The notes beneath the pieces were generated by a model. The model worked only from the letters and a program-made list of their open reading frames with translations. It did not search any database and was not told the origin of the DNA. The translations under genes were made by a program, and so were the position numbers. A stretch of DNA of 44,388 bases from a phage. The DNA lies in the sequence record PX136376.1; one strand, written 5' to 3'. Below are positions 3,297 to 39,462 of this stretch, one piece after another (the stretch's first letter is position 1; each line of letters starts with the position of its first letter).

Positions 3297-3325
3297 AAAA
3301 GGCCCCTTACAGGGCCTTAGTTTTA
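3297..3325. terminator. bidirectional rho-independent terminator (family copy 1)
   Basis: inverted repeat AAGGCCC/GGGCCTT with A-tract upstream and T-rich tract downstream, between convergent genes; stronger reading on minus strand. Confidence 0.55.
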
Positions 3326-3844
3326 TTTAACTCGCGCAGGCATTAACACCATAAATGCTGTATTTGAAAATGATATTTTACATCCTCTTGTTTGGTCCTG
3401 GAAATCGAAACGGGCAAATTCATTTTTGTATGCCTTAGAAATCTTGTACGCGTCCGCCAAATAGCGCAGAGTGAACCCTATGCTATCTACAGCACCTGGA
3501 GTAATGCGCGCCACGCGTCGCCAGTCAGGAAATTTTCCGTCTACAACATCAACCGGAAGGGTACATATAAGCGCACGACTATCGTCATAGAAAGAAACAT
3601 TGCCGTTGTCGTGGTCTACCTCAGCGTAGTTAAATTTAGAAGGCTCCCTCCCTTTGATGTCTATGAGAACTCCCGTTTCAACGTTTGTCTTCACATTGTC
3701 GCAGAACAATCTATGGCCATCCGTAGAAACTATCAATCCTTCAGGGTCTATGTAAAAAGCGTTAAAATAGTAGCGCACATCATTTTTAGCCCTGCAGATT
3801 TTCGCCCCTACATACGCGGGGAAAGTAATTACTGTAGTAACCAT
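3323..3844 (-). CDS. beta sliding clamp (DnaN)-like protein lacking clamp domain I
   Basis: 173 aa; motifs DVRYYFNA, LIVSTDGHRLF, VDGKFPDWRRV and C-terminal FMVLMPARVK resemble E. coli DnaN domain II/III motifs (recalled from memory); AGGAG RBS 8 nt before ATG; own promoter element upstream. Confidence 0.7.
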   Translation of the reverse strand: MVTTVITFPAYVGAKICRAKNDVRYYFNAFYIDPEGLIVSTDGHRLFCDNVKTNVETGVLIDIKGREPSKFNYAEVDHDNGNVSFYDDSRALICTLPVDVVDGKFPDWRRVARITPGAVDSIGFTLRYLADAYKISKAYKNEFARFDFQDQTRGCKISFSNTAFMVLMPARVK

Positions 3845-3863: not shown

Positions 3864-3900
3864 TTAACTGAATAGTACCCTATTATATTGGTGTCTGCAA
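3864..3900 (-). promoter_or_regulatory. conserved promoter/operator element, class 1 copy 1 (overlapping divergent sigma70-like promoters)
   Basis: minus-strand reading TTGCAG-N17-TACTAT toward the DnaN-like gene; plus-strand reading TTAACT-N17-TATATT toward head morphogenesis gene; central palindrome TAATAG-ggta-CTATTC. Confidence 0.5.
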
Positions 3901-3944
3901 ATATTATTTTTATGCGTTACACTGTCGATACTACAGGAGGGCTT

Positions 3945-4988
3945 ATGAGCTTACTTACATCCCTAATCAGCCACCAGATATGGCTACAACGCGCCGCATC
4001 CGGTGAAGTGAAAGACCTCACACCGTTCATTCAGGAAATGCGGGACGAAATCAAACGACAGGTGCTGTTATTCGGCGACGATGGGCGAAGCACTGCGCGA
4101 CTGAATAAACTGTTACGCGACCTCGAAGAGGCACTAACCGGGCTTACCGATGACTGGCAGACAAAGCTGACAGAAGACCTTAAGGAGCTGGCGGCGTATG
4201 AGGCTGAGTGGAACGTAAAGACGCTGACGGCTAACGTTAACGCGGAATTTGTTACACCTACCGCAGAACAGGTGTTGGCCGCTGCCGAGTTTCAGCCTCT
4301 GTCACTAAGGGACAAGCCGGTTGATTTCACTAAGCTGGTGGATGGCTGGGGTGAAACGGAGGTCGCGCGCCTGGTAACCGGCGTTAAGATGGGTTTTGTG
4401 CAAGGCCAGACAACACGGCAGATTATTAAGAATGTTGTTGGTGCCGGTGGGCTGGCGGACATCTCTGAGCGTAACGCAGCTACCGTAATCCGCACTGCGC
4501 TGTCCCACGTATCCAACGAAGCACGTAACGAGACGTATCGCCAGAACGACGACATTATCGAGAAGTACGAGTGGGTGTCAACGCTGGACAGCCGCACCAG
4601 TACGATTTGCAGGGCCAGAGACGGAATGACGTGGGAAATCGGTAAGGGCCCGATGCCGCCAGCGCATCCAAATTGTCGAAGTACCACAGCCCCGGTGATA
4701 AGTTCCGAGTTCGACTTCCTGGACGTAGGAGCTAAACGCGCGGCTAAAGGCGCAGACGGCGGTACCCAGGTAAGCGCGGACACCACCTATTACGAGTTCC
4801 TGAAACAACAACCAGCGTGGTTTCAGGATGAAGCGCTCGGCCCGGTGCGGGGTAAGATTTTCCGTAACAGTGGTATAACGCCGGAAGAGTTTCGCGTAAT
4901 ATCTGTAGATGGTTTCGGGAACCCGCTCACGCTTAAGCAGATGGCGGAACTCGATAAACGTGTTGCTGATTATCTGAAAGGGGAATAA
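3945..4988 (+). CDS. head morphogenesis protein (Mu F / SPP1 gp7-like minor head protein)
   Basis: C-terminal region contains HPNCRS motif typical of the Mu-F family; RBS acaggaggg before ATG at 3945 (ORF track frame opens at 3888); follows portal. Confidence 0.7.
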   Translation: MSLLTSLISHQIWLQRAASGEVKDLTPFIQEMRDEIKRQVLLFGDDGRSTARLNKLLRDLEEALTGLTDDWQTKLTEDLKELAAYEAEWNVKTLTANVNAEFVTPTAEQVLAAAEFQPLSLRDKPVDFTKLVDGWGETEVARLVTGVKMGFVQGQTTRQIIKNVVGAGGLADISERNAATVIRTALSHVSNEARNETYRQNDDIIEKYEWVSTLDSRTSTICRARDGMTWEIGKGPMPPAHPNCRSTTAPVISSEFDFLDVGAKRAAKGADGGTQVSADTTYYEFLKQQPAWFQDEALGPVRGKIFRNSGITPEEFRVISVDGFGNPLTLKQMAELDKRVADYLKGE

Positions 4989-5449
4989 TGATGGGCTTTT
5001 TCAAAGTAACTGATGTACCGTCGCGTCGCGTAGTCCAGTACGCCCGTGTGTCTGGCTCTGGCGAGAACGTGGTATTTATTGAAAATGAAAGTGTACTCGG
5101 TACACCAGTAGACGATATGCCGTTTGCTGATAAAACCGGTATTGCACTACCGGCGGCGGGTATGCTTTATGAAATTCCGTATCTGGCTGATGCTGGTGAT
5201 GTGTATTTCTCGGTGCAACCGAAAGACACGGAACTGGCAGACGGCAGCGCAACTATCACTGTCGAAGTTAAGGCGGGTAAAGCGCCGTATGCGCTGACCT
5301 GGTACAAAGACGGCAAGGAAGTGGTCAACGCCCCTGAAGAAGCTTTGTCTCTGACGGTTAACGCGGTGGGTGAATACTTCGTTAAAGTCACCGATGCCGA
5401 TGGGGTAGAGGCCGTCAGTAAAGCTGCGAAGGTTACTAAGCCGGAATGA
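4988..5449 (+). CDS. Ig-like domain protein (possible capsid accessory/decoration protein)
   Basis: 153 aa; beta-rich segment ...ALTWYKDGKEV...EYFVKVTDADG resembling an Ig-like fold; start overlaps preceding stop. Confidence 0.5.
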   Translation: MMGFFKVTDVPSRRVVQYARVSGSGENVVFIENESVLGTPVDDMPFADKTGIALPAAGMLYEIPYLADAGDVYFSVQPKDTELADGSATITVEVKAGKAPYALTWYKDGKEVVNAPEEALSLTVNAVGEYFVKVTDADGVEAVSKAAKVTKPE

Positions 5450-5519
5450 TAAAAAGCCGGAATGATAAAAAGCCGGAATGATAAAAAGCCGGAATGATAA
5501 AAAGCCGGAATGATAAAAA
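5440..5519. repeat. perfect tandem repeat, 5 copies of 16-bp unit GCCGGAATGATAAAAA
   Basis: read directly; first unit contains the stop codon of the 4988..5449 CDS; array abuts a terminator hairpin. Confidence 0.95.
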
Positions 5520-5545
5520 GCCCCGCTATGGGGCTTTATTTTTAT
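5515..5545 (+). terminator. rho-independent terminator
   Basis: stem AAAGCCCC/GGGGCTTT with loop GCTAT followed by TTTATTTTT. Confidence 0.65.
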
Positions 5546-5609
5546 ATGAACATCGCGGTGATAGCCGCAGCCGATACCCACAAAACAAAATAAAACATCA
5601 CACTATTTG

Positions 5610-5954
5610 TCATTTGCATTTCTCGTCGTATGTTTGTTGTAACTGCGACAGACGATTACCGGCTGTCATCTCGTCCATAGAAGGCCCGGCGCCCGTGTCC
5701 ATAAAGAACAGCGGAACAATCAGGAATGCGCCTGTAACACCGAGTACAACGTTAGTACCTATTTGCTTATTAACACGGTGCGTAGCGTTGGCTTGAGCTT
5801 GTTTTGTCGTGGCGATTCTCGATAGTAACTGATTACATGTTGCCGTTGTATCCCCTGCCTGATAAACCTGTAAAGCCGGGTCTGGCAACGACCTTACGCA
5901 ACCACTCAAACAAACGGCTACAACACCTGCTACTGCTAATTTAATATATTTCAT
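5610..5954 (-). CDS. lipoprotein (candidate superinfection-exclusion or envelope-modifying protein)
   Basis: 114 aa; signal peptide with lipobox LSGC (MKYIKLAVAGVVAVCLSGC); later hydrophobic stretch VVLGVTGAFLIVPLFF; antisense to structural operon. Confidence 0.65.
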   Translation of the reverse strand: MKYIKLAVAGVVAVCLSGCVRSLPDPALQVYQAGDTTATCNQLLSRIATTKQAQANATHRVNKQIGTNVVLGVTGAFLIVPLFFMDTGAGPSMDEMTAGNRLSQLQQTYDEKCK

Positions 5955-6052
5955 AGTTCACCATTACCCGTGTCAATGTCACCAATACCGCTACAAGCCC
6001 AAAGAAACATCACCGCATCAACTGCAATTACTACTGAAATAACGACTAACAT
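5951..6052 (-). CDS. small hydrophobic membrane peptide (33 aa)
   Basis: MLVVISVVIAVDAVMFLWACSGIGDIDTGNGEL; GGAGG RBS 5 nt upstream; stop overlaps lipoprotein start (ATGA); below ORF-track size cutoff. Confidence 0.45.
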   Translation of the reverse strand: MLVVISVVIAVDAVMFLWACSGIGDIDTGNGEL

Positions 6053-6077
6053 GACGGCCTCCCCGGTTCGATAGAAT

Positions 6078-6108
6078 GAATAGTACCCTATTATATTGGG
6101 GTGTGCAA
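6078..6108 (-). promoter_or_regulatory. conserved promoter/operator element, class 1 copy 2
   Basis: GAATAGTACCCTATTATATTGGGGTGTGCAA, identical to copy at 14882-14912; minus-strand TTGCAC-N17-TACTAT upstream of peptide-lipoprotein pair. Confidence 0.5.
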
Positions 6109-6174
6109 ACTATTTATTTACCTATTCCAGTTATTCCTCTCAATTGTAAATGTTGGAATAAACTATTCGAATAG

Positions 6175-6203
6175 TTGACTTTTCACTAAAAATGTGCTAA
6201 GCT
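6175..6203 (+). promoter_or_regulatory. putative sigma70-like promoter
   Basis: TTGACT-N17-TAAGCT; downstream ~200 nt have no convincing ORF and end in a GC hairpin at 6384-6403. Confidence 0.3.
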
Positions 6204-6427
6204 CCACCTGAGCTTGTGAAGTATGAACAAGCGACCGCGGCGCGGGCAGGTAACGGAGCGGGACGTAAGTCCTGAGTGTAGTTACGCTGACGCGTTCGGA
6301 AGGGCCATACTCTATTGCTTGTGTAAAAAGTAACTGGTTTACTGAGATTACGCCGTTTCTATGTTTAAATGATAAGGACTAGCGCCCCGCTTTATGGCGG
6401 GGCTTTACTTATCGAGAAAGGGGAAAC

Positions 6428-6814
6428 ATGAATCTTAAAGCAACTGTCGTAGCAGGAGCATGTTTCATCATCCTGGTTTACGCACACGGCATCTACCAGT
6501 ATCGCAGCGGATGGAACGAAGGCCGGGCTAATCTCGTTTCGCAGCAACAGCAGAAAGCACAGGCTGAGTTAGCGAAGAAAACACAACGGCAGCAGCAGGA
6601 TGAATCGAAGGCCGCCGCCGCTGACAACGAAGGCAAGACGAAATCAGAGGTGATTACCCGTGAAGTCGTTAAGTACATTAAAACGCCTGGTCGCAGCGTG
6701 TGCACTTTTGACCCTGAGCGCGTGCAGCTCAAGTCCCGCGCCGTCGCCAACGCCAATTCCATCCCCGGATACGACGATGATGCAGCCGCCGTGCAAACTG
6801 GCGCAGCCAAGTAG
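6428..6814 (+). CDS. i-spanin (Rz-like)
   Basis: 128 aa; N-terminal TM helix (TVVAGACFIILVYAHGIY) then charged Q/A/E/K-rich periplasmic region; contains embedded +1-frame lipoprotein gene. Confidence 0.7.
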   Translation: MNLKATVVAGACFIILVYAHGIYQYRSGWNEGRANLVSQQQQKAQAELAKKTQRQQQDESKAAAADNEGKTKSEVITREVVKYIKTPGRSVCTFDPERVQLKSRAVANANSIPGYDDDAAAVQTGAAK

Positions 6815-6923
6815 CGACGCTGATGAGGATTTGGCCGTCGACGTTCAGAATGCTGAATGCGTACGGCAACTGAGACTGAAAGTGTTCATGTTGCAGGATT
6901 ACGTGAGGAATATTCTGGAATAG
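6660..6923 (+). CDS. o-spanin (Rz1-like lipoprotein), overlapped architecture
   Basis: 87 aa in +1 frame overlapping the 3' end of the i-spanin; lipobox LSAC; proline-rich mature region (SPAPSPTPIPSP); GTG start inferred. Confidence 0.65.
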   Translation: MKSLSTLKRLVAACALLTLSACSSSPAPSPTPIPSPDTTMMQPPCKLAQPSSDADEDLAVDVQNAECVRQLRLKVFMLQDYVRNILE

Positions 6924-7005
6924 TTGCCTTGCATGTTGGAATAATTTATTCTTGACATGTAAATCCGGGTGGCCCGGATTCCAACGTCCAGGGGACATAC
7001 TGACT

Positions 7006-7707
7006 ATGAATCGTTTTTTACGTTATCCGTTCCAGGAAGAAGCTGGAGCAGAAGATAAAGCTGGTGGCGGTGACGCTCCTAAAATGTTCACCGCTGAAGA
7101 AGTTCAGGCGCTGATTGAGAAAGAAGTTGCCGGGCTTAAGGCTAATCAGGAAGCATTGTTGGCGGAGAAGAAAGAAGCCGCTCGCAAAGCAAAAGAGGCC
7201 GAAGAAGAACGGCAGCGCGCGCACCAGGAGGCGTTAAAAGCCGCTGGTAAGATGGATGAGTTCGAAAAGACGATTCGTAGCCAGTACGACCCTGTGTTAG
7301 CCGAGAAAGACGGTCGCATCTCCAGAATGGCAGAGCGTATCCTCGGCAGCGAACGTAAAGCGGTGCTAGGCTCTTTCGCGGGTGACTTTATTACCCCAGA
7401 AGCAGTGGACATTCTTGCGCCGTTCGTTAAGACTGAGTTCGAAGGCGATGATGTGGTTACTAAGTTTGTTGGTGCAGACGGTAACGTAATCACGACTGAC
7501 CCGGAACAGTTCCGCAAATACCTGCGCGAACACAAGGCGTTTTCGCATTTGATCAAAGCAAATGCAGCTTCCGGCGGCGGGGCTTCCGGTAGCAAAGGCG
7601 GCGGGGCCGCACCAGCGTTTAAAGACATGAGTGAAGCAGAGCGTTTAGCCCTGTATAAATCGAACCCTGCCGAATTTGAACGGCAACTTAAAGCCCTGAG
7701 GAAATAA
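7006..7707 (+). CDS. putative scaffolding protein
   Basis: charged Ala/Glu/Lys-rich predicted coiled coil immediately upstream of major capsid gene; ATG at 7006 chosen within ORF opening at 6952. Confidence 0.55.
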   Translation: MNRFLRYPFQEEAGAEDKAGGGDAPKMFTAEEVQALIEKEVAGLKANQEALLAEKKEAARKAKEAEEERQRAHQEALKAAGKMDEFEKTIRSQYDPVLAEKDGRISRMAERILGSERKAVLGSFAGDFITPEAVDILAPFVKTEFEGDDVVTKFVGADGNVITTDPEQFRKYLREHKAFSHLIKANAASGGGASGSKGGGAAPAFKDMSEAERLALYKSNPAEFERQLKALRK

Positions 7708-7709
7708 TA

Positions 7710-8759
7710 ATGGCAATTACCACTATCGGCGATATCGTAACTGGCAACATCCCGGTCCTGGCGTCTTATATGACCGAGGACCCGGTAGAAAAAACCGCGT
7801 TCTTCCAGTCTGGTATTCTCACCCCGACCCCATACGCCGCCGAGATTGCCCGCGGCCCGTCCAACGTCGCTAATATTCCTTTCTGGAAAGCGATTGATAC
7901 CTCTATCGAGCCGAACTACTCGAACGACGTATACCAGGACATCGCCACCCCGCGTAACGTGCAGACCGGCGAGATGATGGCGCGCGTTGCGTACCTGAAC
8001 GAAGGTTTCGGTCAGGCGGATTTGACCGTTGAACTGACCAGCCAGAACCCGCTGCAATCCGTAGCGTCACGTCTGGATAACTTCTGGCAGCGTCAGGCAC
8101 AACGCCGTCTGATTGCTACCGCGCTCGGGCTGTACAATGACAACGTAGCCGCTACCGACGCATACCACGAGCAGAATGACATGGTAATCGACGTGTCTGC
8201 TACTCTGGGCTTCGATGCGGGCGCGTTCATCGACGCTACCCAGACTATGGGCGATGCTCTGATGGGCAACGGCGGTGAAGTGCTGGGGGCTATCGCGATG
8301 CATAGCTTCGTTTATGCGCAGGCACGTAAGCAGCAGCTTATCGACTTCATCCGTGACGCGGACAACAACACCATGTTCGCCACCTACCAGGGCTACCGCG
8401 TGATTGTTGACGACAGCATGACCGTAGTCGGCACTGGCCCGACCCGTAAGTTCATCTCCATCATCTTCGGCAACGGCGCTATCGGTTACGGTGAAGGTAA
8501 TCCGTCCAACCCGCTGGAATACGAACGCGAAGCGTCCCGCGGTAACGGCGGTGGTGTTGAAACCCTGTGGACCCGTAAGACCTGGTTGCTGCACCCGTTC
8601 GGCTACAGCTTCACCAGTGCAGTAATCACCGGCAACGGCACCGAGACTACCCCGCGCTCCGCTTCCTGGCAGGACCTGGCGAACGCCTCCAACTGGAACC
8701 GTGTTGTTGACCGCAAGCATGTACCGATTGCCTTCCTGGTAACTGGTGTAGGGGCTTAA
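7710..8759 (+). CDS. major capsid protein
   Basis: 349 aa; strong RBS gaggaaa; follows scaffold gene and is followed by a strong terminator; position-based. Confidence 0.7.
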   Translation: MAITTIGDIVTGNIPVLASYMTEDPVEKTAFFQSGILTPTPYAAEIARGPSNVANIPFWKAIDTSIEPNYSNDVYQDIATPRNVQTGEMMARVAYLNEGFGQADLTVELTSQNPLQSVASRLDNFWQRQAQRRLIATALGLYNDNVAATDAYHEQNDMVIDVSATLGFDAGAFIDATQTMGDALMGNGGEVLGAIAMHSFVYAQARKQQLIDFIRDADNNTMFATYQGYRVIVDDSMTVVGTGPTRKFISIIFGNGAIGYGEGNPSNPLEYEREASRGNGGGVETLWTRKTWLLHPFGYSFTSAVITGNGTETTPRSASWQDLANASNWNRVVDRKHVPIAFLVTGVGA

Positions 8760-13336: not shown

Positions 13337-14463
13337 CCCAGCATCTCCGGTGAAATAGTTAAACGTGCGACCTCGCCATATTCGGCGCTATAAGTAATTA
13401 CATTTGCACTGCGGCCTGACATCCACCCGCCGCGGGAGGCATAGGCGTCTTTAGCCGCTAAGGTGCGGTGTTGCTCAACAATCATGTTACGGCTTTCTAC
13501 AATCTTCTGGTGGTGCAGGTGGCCTACGTGGGCGTAGCTATAGACACTCTCACCGAACGCTTTGCGGAATTTGGCAATCATAACCGGTTCGATAGCATCG
13601 AATCGCGCCTTATGCCCGTGGTGAAAGAACAACGTCGTTTTTCCGTGTTGCACCATCTTGTAAACATCCGGCGACGTATCGACAATCACTCGGCTGTCGT
13701 TCGAATATAAAACTGTGAACATTTCAGCCAGCCATACAGAGCCTACAGGGTCATGGTTCCCCTGTACGATAAGCAAGCGAACATTTTTATGTTTAACCAG
13801 TGCCATATCTACAACACGGCGTACCATACGAATCATGTAGCGGACGAGTTTCTGGTAGCGAGTGTCTGCGTCCAACACGTGACGCGACTCAGGTGTAACG
13901 GCATCCAGACTATCGAAGTGCGCGAAATCACCCAGCAGGTTAATAACTCCTGTTCCTGCATCCGGTGCTTTCTGAAACGCCGCGTCGAACCAACGAGAGA
14001 ACAGGTCTTCCGCAATCTTTATATCCCAGTCGTCGCCGCTCTCGTCGGCCCAGGCAAGCATACCGAGATGGAAATCAGATACCGTGTAAAGATTGAGTAG
14101 CTTGTCGTCGCGTTTGGCTCGAGTCGCTTTAGCCGGCGCAACTGGCGTAATCTCTGACTTCATGCCTTCAATCACGGCTTTCATCAACTCGACCTGACGT
14201 TCAGCGTCGGTGTCTGTCTTAACCCATTGCAACTTAGTATTGCCGAACTCGTCTACCAGAGACGACGTCCCTTTAATCTTGTAGCCGTCTGGGACAAGGT
14301 GGCTAACGTCACGCCCGTGGCCTACACCTTTCTTAGCCAGCTTCGCTTTACGGATACGAATAACTCGGTCTGAGATGCCGTATTTACGGGCGATGTCTAC
14401 ATTCTTCATCCCGGCGTTCAATTCTTCCTGTAACTGTTCGTCGGTTATTTTCTTCTGGGCCAT
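13333..14463 (-). CDS. HTH-domain protein fused to calcineurin-like metallophosphoesterase (Mre11/SbcD-like or phosphatase-like)
   Basis: N-terminal HTH-like segment (NVDIARKYGISDRVIRIRKAKL); metallophosphoesterase motifs DFH, GDFAHFD, GNHD, HHGH, GHLHH; RBS gaggaag. Confidence 0.7.
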   Translation of the reverse strand: MAQKKITDEQLQEELNAGMKNVDIARKYGISDRVIRIRKAKLAKKGVGHGRDVSHLVPDGYKIKGTSSLVDEFGNTKLQWVKTDTDAERQVELMKAVIEGMKSEITPVAPAKATRAKRDDKLLNLYTVSDFHLGMLAWADESGDDWDIKIAEDLFSRWFDAAFQKAPDAGTGVINLLGDFAHFDSLDAVTPESRHVLDADTRYQKLVRYMIRMVRRVVDMALVKHKNVRLLIVQGNHDPVGSVWLAEMFTVLYSNDSRVIVDTSPDVYKMVQHGKTTLFFHHGHKARFDAIEPVMIAKFRKAFGESVYSYAHVGHLHHQKIVESRNMIVEQHRTLAAKDAYASRGGWMSGRSANVITYSAEYGEVARLTISPEMLG

Positions 14464-14528: not shown

Positions 14529-14855
14529 CTATTTACTTTCTGCGCCTATTGCCCATCCAGTCATTACCATTTGCAGACGGGTGGCTGTCAGAAGGCTGTA
14601 AAACGCGTCCCCGGTTTTCTCTACCGAACGTATTACCGTGTATGTTACGGCTTGCGGAGGTAGGCCCGATTTACCGACATCTACGGCGGCCTCGCATTCA
14701 CGGACTGTGGAGTCCTTAAATGCCTTTACAATAGTAGGGTCGGCTTTATCAAGCACACCAGAAGTCATAAGAACAGATTCACTAAATACCTGTTCGCACG
14801 GGGCTCCAAAAGTAGCAAAAGACATAAACCCCAGAGCTAATACTAATTTACGCAT
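14529..14855 (-). CDS. secreted/periplasmic protein (108 aa)
   Basis: N-terminal signal peptide MRKLVLALGFMSFATFGA; RBS gagga; first gene downstream of conserved promoter element. Confidence 0.55.
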   Translation of the reverse strand: MRKLVLALGFMSFATFGAPCEQVFSESVLMTSGVLDKADPTIVKAFKDSTVRECEAAVDVGKSGLPPQAVTYTVIRSVEKTGDAFYSLLTATRLQMVMTGWAIGAESK

Positions 14856-14881
14856 AATTATTTCCTCAGTAAGTTACATGT

Positions 14882-14912
14882 GAATAGTACCCTATTATAT
14901 TGGGGTGTGCAA
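14882..14912 (-). promoter_or_regulatory. conserved promoter/operator element, class 1 copy 3
   Basis: minus-strand TTGCAC-N17-TACTAT upstream of the three-gene cassette; plus-strand TTACAT-N17-TATATT toward tail chaperone gene. Confidence 0.5.
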
Positions 14913-15019
14913 GTAGTGTGCTAGAATAAGTTTGCGCCTAGTGTCGCACACGAAAAGCGGGTGGTTCCCGCCTGGCGCATTAACCATAACCAGTAACCTC
15001 TTAACCAAAGGACTAAAGA

Positions 15020-27451: not shown

Positions 27452-27767
27452 TTCTAAATTCCTTATATTGTTGGGGTATGTGCTTACTATAATAGTCTGC
27501 TATTAGGGTGTCAATCTGTTTTATCGAACCAACGACAAAAACATTTGCGCCACGTTTACGTATACGCTCGTGTTCCCGTAGCTGGTGCGGGTCTGGCTTA
27601 GTGTTTTCGTCTTTCTTCACCTCGACGAACCAGACGATGCCGCCGGGTAGAATTGCCAGCAGGTCAGGAGCGCCTGAACGTCCTTCGTAGGAAAGTTTAC
27701 GAACGAGGCCACCAATGGCCTCGAATCGCTCTTTTGCGTATTTCTGGATGCGGCCCTCTTTAGTCAT
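27435..27767 (-). CDS. VRR-NUC domain nuclease
   Basis: 110 aa; PDLLAIL...VWFVEVKK pattern consistent with VRR-NUC PD-(D/E)XK core (recalled). Confidence 0.6.
   Translation of the reverse strand: MTKEGRIQKYAKERFEAIGGLVRKLSYEGRSGAPDLLAILPGGIVWFVEVKKDENTKPDPHQLREHERIRKRGANVFVVGSIKQIDTLIADYYSKHIPQQYKEFRNETRI
27486..27514 (-). promoter_or_regulatory. class 2 promoter with palindromic operator (internal to VRR-NUC coding region)
   Basis: minus-strand TTGACA-N17-TATAGT with perfect palindrome TAATAG-tctg-CTATTA in spacer/-10. Confidence 0.45.
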
Positions 27768-31911: not shown

Positions 31912-31970
31912 CGTGATTTCTCGCTTTTAAGTTTCGTTTACTCCGGGAAGCTGCCCGGTCAGTGATTAGA

Positions 31971-31999
31971 ACTATAATAGCTAACTATTCAGGTGTCAA
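31971..31999 (-). promoter_or_regulatory. class 2 promoter with palindromic operator
   Basis: minus-strand TTGACA-N17-TATAGT; palindrome TAATAG-ctaa-CTATTC; ~55 nt upstream of SSB-like gene start. Confidence 0.5.
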
Positions 32000-32188: not shown

Positions 32189-33426
32189 TCTAAATCCTCC
32201 TCTGTTACCCTATTCCACTCAGGACGTTTGTCGTCTGCCGTTGCAACACATGGTGCGCCTGGCTTACGGGTAATGAAGTCTTTCAGTTCTTCTTCCGGTA
32301 TGACTTTAACCGCTTCGGTTGGCGTCATGAGCACTTGCTTCATTAGCGCTATGCCATACTTGCCAGCCACTTTCTCTGCGTCTTTCCACGCACGATTGCC
32401 CGGGCGGCCCTCAACCAGCTTGTACCCCGGCACTTTCTTACCGGAATGCAACGCGGTGGCCATCGCTTTCTCAACCTTGTCGATGTGCTGGCGCAACAAC
32501 GGCAACTTCTCATATTCAGCTACGAGTTGCTCCGGCGTCAGTTCCAGCACAAAGTCGTCTTCCAGTTCTTCCGCCAGTACAGAATTAACCGTCTTTGTAC
32601 GCGCAGCGCATTGTTCAGAGAACCGGCACCACTGACAACCATCTACCGATGGCTTGAAGTCCGACGCTTTCAGGTTCTTCTTGCCACGGAAATACGCATC
32701 AAGCGCTAACAGCGCGCGTTTCTGTGCGAACTTAGCGAACAGTTCCAGTCCTTCAACCGAGATGTCCCACTCTGTCGCGCCCCCAGCGTAAGGCTGGAAG
32801 ATGACCAGACGAACGGTTGTTATGTTATAACGTCTCTTGAGTCGACGATAAACACCGAGAGCGTAAAGCATAAGCTGCTTGTTTTCTTTCGCTTCGACGC
32901 GATGCCGCCCGGTTTTCAGGTCGCCGATAATGAGCATGTGCTCGTCGGTGTTTGCCAGTTCCTGGACAGCAACGAGGTCAGCGGTTCCGAACGTCTCAAC
33001 GCCTTCATACCCCGGATGCAATACCTCAGTAAGATTGACACGCATTTCCAGCTTGGCGTAAGTCGCTACATCGATAATCGCTTTGCAGTAGTCAGTGTAC
33101 TTGCGCACTTGCTCAATCATGTCAGCCGTAATCAGTACCGCGCCCTTCATCGGGCTGATTAGCGCCTTAATCTGGCCTTTACCCTCGTCCAGCACATAAG
33201 CACCAACTTCACGTTCTAACGGCAGCGCAGTGCCACGGATATGAGCGTTGAGATGGACCTCGGCTATGGTGTGACACGCGGTCCCCGTAACAGCAGCTTT
33301 ACCGGACGTGTTAGGAATATCTTTTTCACAGGCCAGTGATGCACTGCACGCCAGCCACTTTTTGGCGCCAGACGGCGACAGTAAGGCGTGCACATCGTTA
33401 TTGCCACCGCGTTCTTTTAGAATCAT
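32185..33426 (-). CDS. PD-(D/E)XK nuclease with Fe-S-type cysteine cluster (Cas4/RecB-like exonuclease)
   Basis: 413 aa; IGDLK core; Cys pairs near N-terminus (LACSASLAC) and C-terminus (CQWCRFSEQC). Confidence 0.6.
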   Translation of the reverse strand: MILKERGGNNDVHALLSPSGAKKWLACSASLACEKDIPNTSGKAAVTGTACHTIAEVHLNAHIRGTALPLEREVGAYVLDEGKGQIKALISPMKGAVLITADMIEQVRKYTDYCKAIIDVATYAKLEMRVNLTEVLHPGYEGVETFGTADLVAVQELANTDEHMLIIGDLKTGRHRVEAKENKQLMLYALGVYRRLKRRYNITTVRLVIFQPYAGGATEWDISVEGLELFAKFAQKRALLALDAYFRGKKNLKASDFKPSVDGCQWCRFSEQCAARTKTVNSVLAEELEDDFVLELTPEQLVAEYEKLPLLRQHIDKVEKAMATALHSGKKVPGYKLVEGRPGNRAWKDAEKVAGKYGIALMKQVLMTPTEAVKVIPEEELKDFITRKPGAPCVATADDKRPEWNRVTEEDLE

Positions 33427-33785
33427 CGTAAACTCTCCAAATACAAGTTTAATGCCTGTAGCTGTTCTTCTGTGGGAATGAAAGAATCATCGCGACGTAA
33501 GTCGCTTAACTGTTGCAGCATTCCTGCGAACTTACGTCTTGCGTCAACAGCGACAATGTGATGCTTTTCACTTTTATATATTAAGGTTTTCGGGTAATCC
33601 TCAATCCTGCCAGACGATTTATTCACGCGGAGTGCGCGATCTTCATGCGCAATGTGTATGTACTTTTTGCCGTTTTGTAGCACAGTAGCTACACCGCTGT
33701 TCTTTCTGCGGTCGCCGACGGTGTAAACTTTGTCGCCGCTGCGCAAATTAAGCCACCATTTATCAGTCATACCCTGTTCTCCCAC
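33423..33785 (-). CDS. hypothetical protein (120 aa)
   Basis: ORF in leftward operon; no motif recognised. Confidence 0.45.
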   Translation of the reverse strand: MGEQGMTDKWWLNLRSGDKVYTVGDRRKNSGVATVLQNGKKYIHIAHEDRALRVNKSSGRIEDYPKTLIYKSEKHHIVAVDARRKFAGMLQQLSDLRRDDSFIPTEEQLQALNLYLESLR

Positions 33786-34835: not shown

Positions 34836-34863
34836 ATCTGCCCCTCTCGTTTGGTATGGGCTA

Positions 34864-34893
34864 ACTATAATAGCGAACTATTCACATGTCAAT
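34864..34893 (-). promoter_or_regulatory. class 2 promoter with palindromic operator O1
   Basis: minus-strand TTGACA-N17-TATAGT; palindrome TAATAG-cgaa-CTATTC. Confidence 0.5.
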
Positions 34894-34911: not shown

Positions 34912-34927
34912 TAATATGGTACTATTC
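34912..34927. promoter_or_regulatory. second operator-like site O2
   Basis: TAATAT-ggta-CTATTC, one mismatch from O1 half-site; ~30 bp upstream of the HTH gene start. Confidence 0.4.
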
Positions 34928-34956
34928 ACATATCAACTGACTAAGGAGTAATTGAC

Positions 34957-38337: not shown

Positions 38338-38368
38338 TTGCACACCCCAATATAATAGGATACTATTC
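38338..38368 (+). promoter_or_regulatory. conserved promoter/operator element, class 1 copy 4 (rightward)
   Basis: TTGCAC-N17-TACTAT with palindrome TAATAG-gata-CTATTC; 30 nt upstream of RBS gaggag and gene at 38401. Confidence 0.5.
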
Positions 38369-38400
38369 ACTTATTGAAACAAGACAGAGGAGTGATGGTT

Positions 38401-39402: not shown

Positions 39403-39431
39403 TTGCACACTAGGATAGAATAGACTACTAT
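39403..39431 (+). promoter_or_regulatory. class 1-like promoter (diverged copy 5)
   Basis: TTGCAC-N17-TACTAT; operator-like AATAG-acta-CTATTC; 30 nt upstream of gene at 39463. Confidence 0.45.
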
Positions 39432-39462
39432 TCATTTACACGAACGAGAGGAGATACGGAAG

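What the first reader, a model, noticed from the sequence alone, without database searches (positions are those of the whole stretch)
5610..6108. Antisense moron: translationally coupled 33-aa membrane peptide plus lipoprotein
A small hydrophobic peptide (GGAGG RBS) overlaps by ATGA a 114-aa lipoprotein (lipobox LSGC) that has an additional hydrophobic segment. The pair sits inside the structural module on the opposite strand under the conserved promoter element. Phage lipoproteins of this size are classically superinfection-exclusion or receptor-masking factors (e.g. T5 Llp, phi80 Cor), but no sequence similarity to those could be verified. It is distinct from the Rz/Rz1 pair, which lies separately at 6428-6923.
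Basis: partly seen in the sequence, partly recalled or inferred. Interest (0 to 1): 0.5.

Follow-up and report, generated by a model that had tools for sequence, protein, structure and literature searches.

The report
Three-gene envelope moron in Kagunavirus
A lytic E. coli phage (genus Kagunavirus) carries, backwards inside its head genes, a small self-contained cassette for a lipoprotein and two tiny membrane peptides; the lipoprotein belongs to a large unstudied bacterial family that other phages keep where they normally place genes that block rival phages.

Summary
On the minus strand a 33-aa hydrophobic peptide (6052-5951, GGAGG RBS) overlaps by ATGA a 114-aa lipoprotein (5954-5610, lipobox LSGC). 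The unit sits under a promoter element repeated five times in the window and ends at a bidirectional terminator. All three are under purifying selection.

The modules are separable. One relative has lipoprotein plus the 23-aa peptide without the 33-aa peptide, and K1H has only the 33-aa peptide. Only 11 of 301 related phage records carry the cassette, so it is a swappable moron.

The lipoprotein has no Pfam, NCBIfam, PDB or PADLOC match (PHROG 13472, function unknown). It belongs to a family of at least 1479 clusters across diderm phyla. It is predicted to be a helical hairpin with a conserved hydrophobic tip, and co-lost cysteines suggest a disulfide staple.

In nine podovirus prophages (P22-like where checked) it follows the DNA-ejection genes, the sieA slot. 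It also occurs in early regions of Aeromonas T7-like phages and on small Mob plasmids.

Superinfection exclusion at DNA entry is the best-supported function but is untested (about 0.4). Llp/Cor-type receptor masking is not supported.

The parts
6076..6108 (-). Conserved 'class-B' promoter. The -35 is TTGCAC (6108-6103), followed by a 17-nt spacer ACCCCAATATAATAGGG that contains the palindrome AATAG-N4-CTATT and a perfect TATAAT. The -10 is TACTAT (6085-6080).
   Evidence: Five near-identical copies occur in the window: 3868, 6076 and 14880 on the minus strand, and 38351 and 39416 on the plus strand. Each lies about 25 nt before a start codon. At 3 or fewer mismatches there are 6 matches against 0 expected. 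The element is conserved upstream of different cargo in L062, K1H and Bas74. Promoter activity is inferred, not measured. The simple sigma-70 scan did not score it (7 of 12 hexamer matches).
6058..6062 (-). Shine-Dalgarno GGAGG, 5 nt upstream of the ATG of the 33-aa ORF
   Evidence: Read directly from the sequence.
5951..6052 (-). pep33: MLVVISVVIAVDAVMFLWACSGIGDIDTGNGEL, a single hydrophobic helix followed by an acidic tail
   Evidence: ORF listed. Among 6 phages there are 9 variable sites, 5 synonymous and 4 conservative. The K1H homologue is MMVAISFVLLVNLGLFVWAVSGVEDADSGNGEL, with dN 0.35 and dS 1.77. The Cys is not conserved, so it is not a lipoprotein. It is absent from L062.
5610..5954 (-). 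114-aa lipoprotein precursor. Features: lipobox LSGC with Cys19; predicted helix 40-75; conserved hydrophobic tip NVVLGVTGAFLIVPLFFMD (68-86); predicted helix 93-112; conserved Cys40 and Cys113.
   Evidence: ORF and ATGA overlap. It matches phrog_13472 at E=1.2e-44 and has no Pfam, NCBIfam, PDB or PADLOC match. Family alignments are A1, A2 and A6. The AF2 model has pLDDT 76.5. Cys40 and Cys113 are lost together in 3 of 4 loss cases. dN/dS is about 0.11.
5542..5613 (-). pep23: MTNSVMFYFVLWVSAAAITAMFI, an uncharged single-helix peptide. Its ATG overlaps the lipoprotein TGA (ATGA at 5613-5610). An alternative start at 5619 gives a 25-aa product.
   Evidence: It is conserved in L062 as MTNSLGFYAVLWVTAAVITGMFI at 69% nucleotide identity, with pN 0.15 and pS 0.93. 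It is present in all 11 cassette-bearing phage records and is not annotated in them.
5517..5537 (.). Bidirectional intrinsic terminator: a GCCCC...GGGGC hairpin flanked by an A run and a T run. It ends both the Hoc-like gene (plus strand) and the cassette (minus strand, 4 nt after the pep23 stop).

Best explanation
The region is an autonomous three-gene moron. A conserved, probably early and operator-controlled promoter transcribes, antisense to the head genes, pep33, then the lipoprotein, then pep23, ending at a bidirectional terminator. Consecutive reading frames are coupled by ATGA overlaps. All three products are envelope proteins.

The lipoprotein is exported and lipidated at Cys19. It most likely folds in the periplasm as an alpha-helical hairpin stapled at its base by a Cys40-Cys113 disulfide. 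Its strongly conserved hydrophobic tip (LGVTGAFLIVPLFFM) dips into a membrane leaflet. The two micropeptides are single-pass inner-membrane helices.

The most likely role is superinfection exclusion at the DNA-entry step. Made soon after infection, the proteins would alter the periplasmic face of the envelope so that a second phage cannot build or use its DNA-delivery conduit. They would not mask a specific outer-membrane receptor.

Shown here: the gene structure, purifying selection, family membership and genomic contexts. Inferred: the promoter's timing, the protein topology and the exclusion function.
For: Cassette anatomy and moron behaviour:
- Anatomy.
- Only 11 of 301 related phage records carry the cassette, and the slot between the conserved promoter and terminator holds different cargo in relatives.
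- All three ORFs are under purifying selection.

Protein features:
- The lipobox Cys is invariant in 103 of 103 homologues.
- Cys40 and Cys113 are both present in 99 homologues and are lost together in 3 of the 4 loss cases.
- The flank on the C-terminal side of the hydrophobic stretch is acidic (-2.4) and the N-terminal flank is basic (+0.9). This is the wrong way round for a membrane-spanning helix that follows a periplasmic N-terminal domain.
- AF2 predicts a hairpin with both helices above pLDDT 90 in places.

Context pointing to exclusion:
- In 9 podovirus prophages (L003-L005, L063, L077-L081) the homologue lies immediately after the DNA-transfer or internal-virion (ejection) protein genes and before mnt/arc or the tailspike. 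P22 keeps sieA in this position (PMC10883804).
- In lytic Aeromonas Autographiviridae it lies in the early region upstream of primase.
- It also occurs on small MobC/relaxase plasmids and on a Rep3 plasmid.
- In Bas74 the same class-B promoter drives a Pfam Imm_superinfect gene (48.3 bits, cutoff 27.9) in the sister antisense slot.
- Class-B copies also head the small-ORF cluster at 38.4-39.6 kb, which fits early expression.
Against: - No experiment and no homology links the family to any characterised exclusion protein. PADLOC, Pfam, NCBIfam, PDB and the Foldseek searches were all negative.
- Most family members are single chromosomal genes flanked by housekeeping genes, with no conserved partner. 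The ancestral function is therefore probably a host envelope function, and the phage copy might simply keep it.
- The positional argument (sieA slot) is guilt by association. That slot and other moron slots also carry non-exclusion cargo.
- A few homologues have C-terminal CxxC...CxxC or SHOCT tails, which would fit a cytoplasmic C-terminus better.
- The hydrophobic tip is poorly modelled (pLDDT 50-59).
- The promoter is only 7 of 12 to the sigma-70 consensus, and its timing is unknown.
Confidence: 0.4

Rival explanations
1. Host-type envelope function carried as a fitness or conversion factor. The phage copy would do what the chromosomal homologues do (for example envelope-stress buffering, lipid or outer-membrane homeostasis, or protection against external insults, in the way lambda Bor or plasmid TraT protect their host). 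The benefit to the infected or lysogenic cell would not involve excluding other phages.
For: - The family is mainly chromosomal and spread over many diderm phyla, with very strong conservation of the hydrophobic motif and no conserved partner.
- The Photorhabdus copy lies beside mlaA and fadL.
- Copies occur on Rhizobium megaplasmids or chromids and on small plasmids.
Against: Strictly lytic phages (Kagunavirus, Aeromonas T7-like phages) also carry it, under early-type promoters or in early regions. Long-term host fitness traits have little value there. In temperate podoviruses the gene is fixed at the ejection-protein/sieA position.
Confidence: 0.2
2. Lysis accessory. The lipoprotein with its second hydrophobic segment would act like a unimolecular spanin or a lysis-timing or envelope-stabilising factor, and the micropeptides would act as holin or antiholin modulators, working with the neighbouring Rz/Rz1 genes.
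For: The cassette is 370 bp from the spanin genes. A lipobox plus a further hydrophobic segment superficially resembles u-spanins such as T1 gp11 (from established knowledge of that family). Small membrane peptides often modulate lysis.
Against: - The unit is divergently transcribed from the spanins, under a different promoter class, and is absent from most Kagunaviruses, which keep Rz/Rz1.
- Holins and endolysin lie about 35 kb away.
- The hydrophobic segment is not C-terminal.
- The co-varying cysteines argue that both helices are periplasmic.
- Homologues occur as lone chromosomal genes, on plasmids, and in P22-like prophages outside the lysis cassette.
- The roughly 50 residues between the lipid anchor and the hydrophobic segment seem too few to span the periplasm (inference).
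Confidence: 0.1
3. Receptor-masking outer-membrane lipoprotein of the T5 Llp / phi80 Cor type. It would bind and inactivate the phage's own outer-membrane receptor, preventing re-adsorption and the loss of progeny on cell debris.
For: It is a small phage lipoprotein with no Asp at position +2 in any of about 50 homologues, so the Lol sorting rule predicts outer-membrane targeting. It has a probable disulfide, as I recall for Llp (from memory, not checked here).
Against: - There is no similarity to Cor or Llp beyond the signal peptide (phrog_1119 E=0.29).
- The gene is not adjacent to a receptor-binding protein gene.
- Kagunaviruses depend on glycan receptors recognised by tailspikes (PMC11990801).
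- Near-invariant motifs shared from Planctomycetes to Enterobacteria argue against recognition of a particular variable outer-membrane protein.
- The same family serves podoviruses and siphoviruses that infect different genera.
Confidence: 0.08
4. The micropeptides are the active agents. pep33 and/or pep23 would be small membrane-active host-takeover peptides that inhibit a transporter or depolarise the membrane (in the manner of SgrT, AcrZ or type-I toxin peptides), and the lipoprotein would be independent cargo that happens to share the slot.
For: The modules occur independently: K1H has pep33 only and L062 lacks pep33. Both peptides are under purifying selection. HK97 gp15 is a precedent for a small membrane moron in a structural module (cited in PMC10883804).
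Against: pep23 was found only with the lipoprotein and is translationally coupled to it in both diverged variants. This suggests a functional link rather than chance co-location. Neither peptide matches any known peptide family.
Confidence: 0.1

Closest known systems
P22 SieA (inner-membrane superinfection exclusion protein; Leavitt et al. 2024, PMC10883804)
   Same: Homologues of the lipoprotein occupy the same genome position in P22-like prophages, between the ejection-protein genes and mnt/tailspike. Like SieA it is an envelope protein expressed independently of the surrounding virion genes.
   Different: SieA is 162-164 aa with three predicted transmembrane helices, no lipobox, and a cytoplasmic FxRYPxEAxxFNK motif. 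The protein here is a 114-aa lipoprotein with none of these and no sequence relationship to SieA. Exclusion activity has not been shown for it.
T5 Llp and phi80/N15 Cor lipoproteins (FhuA-blocking)
   Same: Both are small phage-encoded lipoproteins made by a phage to alter the cell envelope. Llp is also made by a lytic phage.
   Different: There is no sequence similarity (phrog_1119 E=0.29, confined to the signal peptide). This gene is not linked to a receptor-binding protein gene. The family is widespread in bacterial chromosomes. The extra hydrophobic tip and helical-hairpin prediction are not features I associate with Llp or Cor (from memory, not checked here).
HK97 gp15 moron (small inner-membrane protein blocking DNA entry; Cumby et al. 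2012, cited in PMC10883804)
   Same: Both are classic moron layouts: membrane-protein genes with their own transcription signals inserted among virion structural genes.
   Different: HK97 is temperate, and gp15 is a single gene, not a lipoprotein flanked by two micropeptides.
T4 Imm-type superinfection immunity proteins (Pfam PF14373)
   Same: In the relative Bas74, a PF14373 gene sits in the sister antisense slot under the same class-B promoter. Imm is an early product of a lytic phage (from established knowledge of T4).
   Different: None of the three products here matches PF14373.
Streptococcus phage TP-J34 Ltp (lipoprotein exclusion factor targeting the tape measure protein; PMC3952083, and cited in PMC10883804)
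   Same: It is a lipid-anchored helical protein on the outer face of the cytoplasmic membrane that blocks DNA injection. This is the mechanism proposed here.
   Different: Ltp works in a Gram-positive host and has a different fold (helix-turn-helix repeat domains). No homology was detected in the PDB sequence or fold searches.

Membership tests
Bacterial lipoprotein (Lgt/LspA/Lnt substrates) | N-terminal signal peptide with a basic n-region, a hydrophobic core, and a lipobox [LVI][ASTVI][GAS]C | tested here: met
   The sequence is MKYIKLAVAGVVAVCLSG|C. The Cys is invariant in 103 of 103 homologues, and the lipoboxes LSAC, LAGC, LTGC and LSGC dominate.
Bacterial lipoprotein (Lgt/LspA/Lnt substrates) | Actual lipid modification and signal peptidase II cleavage (globomycin-sensitive) | not testable with these tools
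   This needs labelling or globomycin experiments.
Moron (autonomous extra gene unit in a phage genome) | Own promoter and terminator, present in some close relatives and absent in others, inserted between conserved genes | tested here: met
   The unit has a conserved class-B promoter and a bidirectional terminator. Only 11 of 301 related records carry it, and alternative cargo fills the same slot in others. Promoter activity itself is inferred.
PHROG 13472 | Full-length match to the profile | tested here: met
   E=1.2e-44 over residues 3-114 against profile positions 1-113 of 113. The family is annotated 'unknown function'.
Cor / Llp receptor-blocking lipoproteins | Sequence similarity of the mature protein to Cor (phrog_1119) or Llp | tested here: not met
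   phrog_1119 scores E=0.29 over residues 1-37 only, which is the signal peptide.
Cor / Llp receptor-blocking lipoproteins | Blocks adsorption by binding the phage's outer-membrane receptor | not testable with these tools
   This needs an adsorption assay. Conservation of the family across phyla argues against a specific receptor target.
P22 SieA family | Protein of about 160 aa with three or four transmembrane helices and the FxRYPxEAxxFNK motif | tested here: not met
   The protein here is 114 aa, has a lipobox, has one hydrophobic stretch and lacks the motif. The SieA description comes from PMC10883804.
P22 SieA family | Located between ejection-protein gene 16 and gene 9 in P22-like prophages | tested here: met
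   This is met by the prophage homologues (L003-L005, L063, L077, L078, L080), not by the window gene itself. L079 and L081 are analogous: the gene lies after internal virion protein genes and before a tail fibre gene.
Imm_superinfect (PF14373) | Pfam match above the gathering score | tested here: not met
   None of the cassette products matches. Bas74_0023 in the sister slot does match.
Spanins (Rz1 o-spanin or unimolecular spanin) | Outer-membrane lipoprotein working with, or fused to, a C-terminal inner-membrane anchor, encoded in or with the lysis genes and conserved with them | tested here: not met
   A separate Rz/Rz1 pair lies at 6428-6923. The cassette is dispensable in most relatives. 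The hydrophobic segment is internal, and the cysteine co-variation places both helices on one side of the membrane. Homologues occur as lone chromosomal and plasmid genes.
Known anti-phage defence proteins (PADLOC-DB) | Match to any PADLOC model | tested here: not met
   There were no matches at E<=1 for the three products or for the two prophage and plasmid homologues scanned.

The most novel reading that the evidence does not exclude
The lipoprotein would represent a large, entirely uncharacterised family of diderm envelope proteins: lipid-anchored, disulfide-stapled helical hairpins with a membrane-inserting tip. Unrelated mobile elements (siphoviruses, P22-like and T7-like podoviruses, mobilisable plasmids) would have repeatedly captured it as a generic, receptor-independent blocker of incoming DNA. 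It would act on a universal envelope feature, such as formation of a trans-periplasmic or inner-membrane DNA conduit. In Kagunavirus it would work together with dedicated micropeptides.
Probability: 0.15. Interest if true: 0.7.

Novelty: new member of a known kind. Interest (0 to 1): 0.4.

Why it matters
If the cassette excludes secondary infection, it would define a new exclusion-protein family unrelated in sequence to SieA, Imm, Cor/Llp or Ltp. The family would be shared by lytic and temperate phages of several genera and by plasmids. That matters for phage-cocktail design, because Kagunaviruses are used in therapy studies. It also matters for understanding how DNA-entry conduits can be blocked from the periplasmic side.

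Independently of function, the work does three things:
- It flags a family of at least 1479 clusters of conserved lipoproteins with no Pfam, NCBIfam or structural annotation.
- It finds an unannotated 23-aa gene present in all 11 cassette-bearing phage records.
- It shows that Kagunavirus genomes contain three antisense cargo slots headed by one conserved, operator-bearing promoter. These are convenient natural insertion sites for engineering.

Tried and rejected
- **Library scans.** Pfam, NCBIfam, PHROGs and PADLOC scans of the three products gave only phrog_13472 (unknown function). The weak hits (T2SSF, Lpp/OprI, blaACC) are below threshold or confined to the signal peptide.
- **Solved structures and folds.** A profile search of PDB sequences gave nothing meaningful. 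Foldseek of the AF2 model against PDB and BFVD gave only generic helical hairpins at E>0.3, such as AcrA/EmrA hairpins and WXG100. The afdb50 library was unavailable.
- **Conserved neighbours.** I looked for a conserved neighbour of the chromosomal homologues in 52 loci and found none; the neighbours are housekeeping genes.
- **Micropeptide partners elsewhere.** I looked for a conserved upstream or downstream micropeptide next to non-Kagunavirus homologues and found none.
- **Rfam.** A scan of 5300-7100 gave no hit.
- **pep33 as a mini-lipoprotein** (LWAC motif). Rejected because the Cys is Val in K1H and the peptide has no basic n-region.
- **Micropeptides as holins.** Rejected on size, and because holin and endolysin genes are annotated elsewhere in a relative.
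- **Hydrophobic stretch as a true membrane span.** Disfavoured by the co-varying cysteines and the flank charges, but not excluded.
- **E. coli complete genomes.** They do not carry the prophage allele at blastn sensitivity.
- **Literature.** Searches found no paper that discusses this cassette.
Full report
**Identity of the window.** The 1.6 kb around the finding is 95-97.5% identical to Escherichia phages of the genus Kagunavirus (Guernseyvirinae), such as Golestan, phiEc4 and fBC-Eco01. Published work describes these as small siphoviruses that recognise glycan receptors with tailspikes (PMC11990801). The finding lies between the Hoc-like head decoration gene (4988-5449, +) and the Rz/Rz1 spanins (6428-6923, +), the scaffold gene (6952-7707) and the major capsid gene (7710-8759).

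**Checking the observation.**
- On the minus strand, GGAGG (6062-6058) lies 5 nt before the ATG of a 33-aa ORF (6052-5951).
- The TGA of that ORF overlaps the ATG of a 114-aa ORF (5954-5610) as ATGA.
- The 114-aa product begins MKYIKLAVAGVVAVCLSGC and has a second hydrophobic stretch at residues 69-85.
- A hairpin at 5517-5537, flanked by an A run and a T run, scores as an intrinsic terminator on both strands.

**The promoter element.** The 'conserved promoter element' also exists. TATAATAGGGTACTATTCA-like sites occur six times in the window at 3 or fewer mismatches, against none in 100 shuffles. Alignment separates two classes.
- Class A has four copies in the replication arm, read as TTGACA-N17-TATAGT on the minus strand.
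- Class B has five copies: 3868, 6076 and 14880 on the minus strand, and 38351 and 39416 on the plus strand.
- Class-B copies are nearly identical over 32 nt, TTGCA(C/G)ACCCCAATATAATAGGGTACTATTCA, which gives TTGCAC-N17-TACTAT.
- Each class-B copy lies about 25 nt upstream of a start codon in that orientation.
- Both classes contain the palindrome AATAG-N4-CTATT, which looks like an operator.
- The hexamers match the sigma-70 consensus at only 7 of 12 positions, so the simple scan did not report them. Promoter function and timing are inferences.

**A third gene.** Immediately after the lipoprotein, a further ATGA (5613-5610) starts a 23-aa uncharged hydrophobic peptide, MTNSVMFYFVLWVSAAAITAMFI. 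It ends 4 nt before the terminator hairpin.

**Are the ORFs real?** A metagenomic Kagunavirus contig (L062) carries a lipoprotein variant that is 82% identical in protein and 76% in DNA.
- For the lipoprotein against L062, dN is 0.135 and dS is 1.21.
- For the 23-aa peptide against L062, pN is 0.15 while synonymous sites are saturated (pS 0.93), with the protein conserved as MTNSLGFYAVLWVTAAVITGMFI.
- The 33-aa peptide varies at nine sites among six close relatives, five synonymous and four conservative.
- It has a diverged homologue in phage K1H, MMVAISFVLLVNLGLFVWAVSGVEDADSGNGEL, with dN 0.35 and dS 1.77.

All three are therefore coding. The Cys in pep33 is Val in K1H, so pep33 is not itself a lipoprotein.

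**Modularity.** Only 11 of 301 related phage records contain the cassette. In most others, similarity resumes at window position about 6058-6077, which is the promoter element. The slot between the conserved promoter and the terminator varies:
- Bas74 holds an unrelated 67-aa acidic ORF without a signal peptide.
- K1H holds pep33 alone, followed directly by the terminator.
- L062 has the promoter followed by the lipoprotein and pep23, with no pep33.

So this is a swappable moron slot. The partner conserved in both Kagunavirus variants is pep23.

**The lipoprotein family.** The protein matches phrog_13472 (unknown function, E=1.2e-44). It matches nothing in Pfam, NCBIfam or PADLOC, and nothing meaningful among PDB sequences.
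- A word-indexed search found 20 homologues.
- A profile search found 1479 representative clusters at E<=0.001, of which 726 are at E<=1e-10.
- A scan of species-representative genomes found 55 loci in Alpha-, Beta- and Gammaproteobacteria, Deferribacterales, Nitrospina-type MAGs, Planctomycetes, Omnitrophota and Desulfobacteraceae/Thermodesulfobacteriota.
- In 103 aligned members, Cys19, Asp35 and Arg101 are invariant. Cys40, Asn68, Gly75, Pro81, Asp86, Glu94, Leu105 and Cys113 are at least 90% conserved.
- The consensus core is KNVALGVTGAFLIVPLFFMD.
- The residue after the lipidated Cys is never Asp. By the enterobacterial Lol rule this predicts outer-membrane sorting, but the hydrophobic tip may override the rule (inference).

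**Structure and topology.** AlphaFold2 with the 103-sequence alignment gives mean pLDDT 76.5. It predicts two long helices (40-75 and 93-112, with blocks above 90) and a poorly defined hydrophobic connection at pLDDT 50-59. Two observations favour a periplasmic hairpin over a membrane-spanning topology.
- Cys40 and Cys113 are both present in 99 of 103 sequences and are lost together in three of the four exceptions, as expected for a disulfide.
- The flank N-terminal to the hydrophobic stretch is basic (+0.9) and the C-terminal flank is acidic (-2.4). This is the reverse of the positive-inside rule if the segment crossed the inner membrane from a periplasmic N-terminus.

Against this, a few members carry CxxC...CxxC or SHOCT tails. 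Fold searches returned only generic helical hairpins at non-significant E-values.

**Genomic contexts.**
- *Chromosomal members* have no conserved neighbour, and their flanking genes are mostly housekeeping. One Photorhabdus copy lies beside mlaA and fadL.
- *Prophage members* are different. In nine podovirus prophage loci the gene lies immediately downstream of the DNA-transfer or internal-virion (ejection) protein genes and upstream of mnt/arc/ant or the tailspike. These loci are L003-L005 from Citrobacter, and L063 and L077-L081, whose hosts the tools did not name. P22 keeps sieA in this place. SieA itself is an unrelated inner-membrane protein with three transmembrane helices that blocks the gp20/gp16 conduit (PMC10883804).
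- *Other mobile elements.* Homologues also follow MobC, relaxase and ProQ genes on small plasmids, occur on a Rep3 plasmid, and sit in the early region upstream of primase in lytic Aeromonas Autographiviridae. Those copies keep all the invariant residues.
- *Within Kagunavirus*, the class-B promoter in the sister antisense slot of Bas74 drives a gene that passes the Pfam Imm_superinfect threshold (48.3 bits against a cutoff of 27.9). In this window the equivalent slot (14529-14855) encodes a 108-aa protein with a signal peptide.

**Interpretation.** The anatomy is that of an autonomous envelope moron with three translationally coupled products.

The recurrent placement of the lipoprotein points to interference with incoming DNA as the most likely role. 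It sits at the ejection-protein/sieA position of temperate podoviruses, in early regions of lytic podoviruses, on mobilisable plasmids, and under a promoter class that elsewhere drives an Imm-type gene. The proposed mechanism is a periplasmic, membrane-inserted hairpin, not a receptor mask.

This rests on context only, and I put it at about 0.4.

The Llp/Cor analogy fails the similarity test. It also fits poorly with a family conserved across many phyla and with glycan-dependent Kagunaviruses.

A lysis role is unlikely:
- The cassette is dispensable among relatives that keep Rz/Rz1.
- It is divergently transcribed from the spanins.
- Holin and endolysin genes lie elsewhere.
- Homologues are lone chromosomal or plasmid genes.

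A retained host-type envelope function remains a serious rival. So does independent action of the micropeptides.

**Novelty.** The three genes are unannotated or 'hypothetical' in every related record, and no paper found discusses them. The kind of element, a phage moron encoding envelope proteins, is well known. What is new is the protein family, its predicted architecture and its repeated capture by unrelated mobile elements. I rate it a new member of a known kind, of moderate interest.

Noticed in passing
window 5441-5522: A 16-bp unit, GCCGGAATGATAAAAA, is repeated five times head to tail, starting at the last codons and stop of the Hoc-like gene and running into the bidirectional terminator. 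Close relatives have 0-1 exact copies. Its significance is unknown; it may be slippage or a protein-binding array.
   Followed up: partly
window 27485-27514, 31970-31999, 34863-34892, 34912-34936 (class A); 3868-3912, 6076-6120, 14880-14924, 38348-38377, 39416-39435 (class B): Two promoter-like repeat classes share the palindrome AATAG-N4-CTATT. Class A reads TTGACA-N17-TATAGT towards the replication genes. Class B reads TTGCAC-N17-TACTAT. The shared palindrome suggests a single phage regulator controlling both classes.
   Followed up: partly
window 14529-14855 (-), and Bas74 (L085) 13442-13648: A second antisense slot under a class-B promoter encodes a 108-aa protein with an N-terminal signal peptide (phrog_14165, unknown function). 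In Bas74 the equivalent slot holds a Pfam Imm_superinfect gene.
   Followed up: partly
window 3323-3844 (-): A third antisense unit under a class-B promoter encodes a 173-aa protein. It matches PHROGs annotated as RusA-like resolvase or polymerase processivity factor, and is annotated 'sliding clamp' in fBC-Eco01.
   Followed up: no
window 6150-6406 (+): This conserved unit lies between the cassette and the spanins. It contains an ATGTTGGAATAA..TATTC element (also at 6933-6951), the palindrome CTATTCGAATAG, a TTGACT...TAAGCT promoter-like site, a 36-aa ORF (6223-6333) and a terminator (6384-6403). There was no Rfam hit, and the fold z-score is -2.0. It could be a small RNA or a micro-protein gene.
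   Followed up: partly
PLSDB record CP088689.1 (E. coli, 44,086 bp), 33426-33722: A record filed as an E. coli plasmid has the size of a Kagunavirus genome and encodes a relative of the lipoprotein (39% identity to the plasmid-type homologue P0005). It may be a phage genome deposited as a plasmid.
   Followed up: no
family members L034, P0011 (SHOCT tail); L046, P0082 (CxxC...CxxC tail); L007, L026, L042 (extra C-terminal domains): Some bacterial homologues carry C-terminal additions, including SHOCT domains and zinc-ribbon-like motifs. These sit awkwardly with a fully periplasmic topology.
   Followed up: no
L010 (Photorhabdus namnaonensis) 5977-6330: A chromosomal homologue of the enterobacterial subtype lies between a dicarboxylate symporter gene and mlaA-fadL, which are outer-membrane lipid-homeostasis genes. 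This may be coincidence.
   Followed up: no
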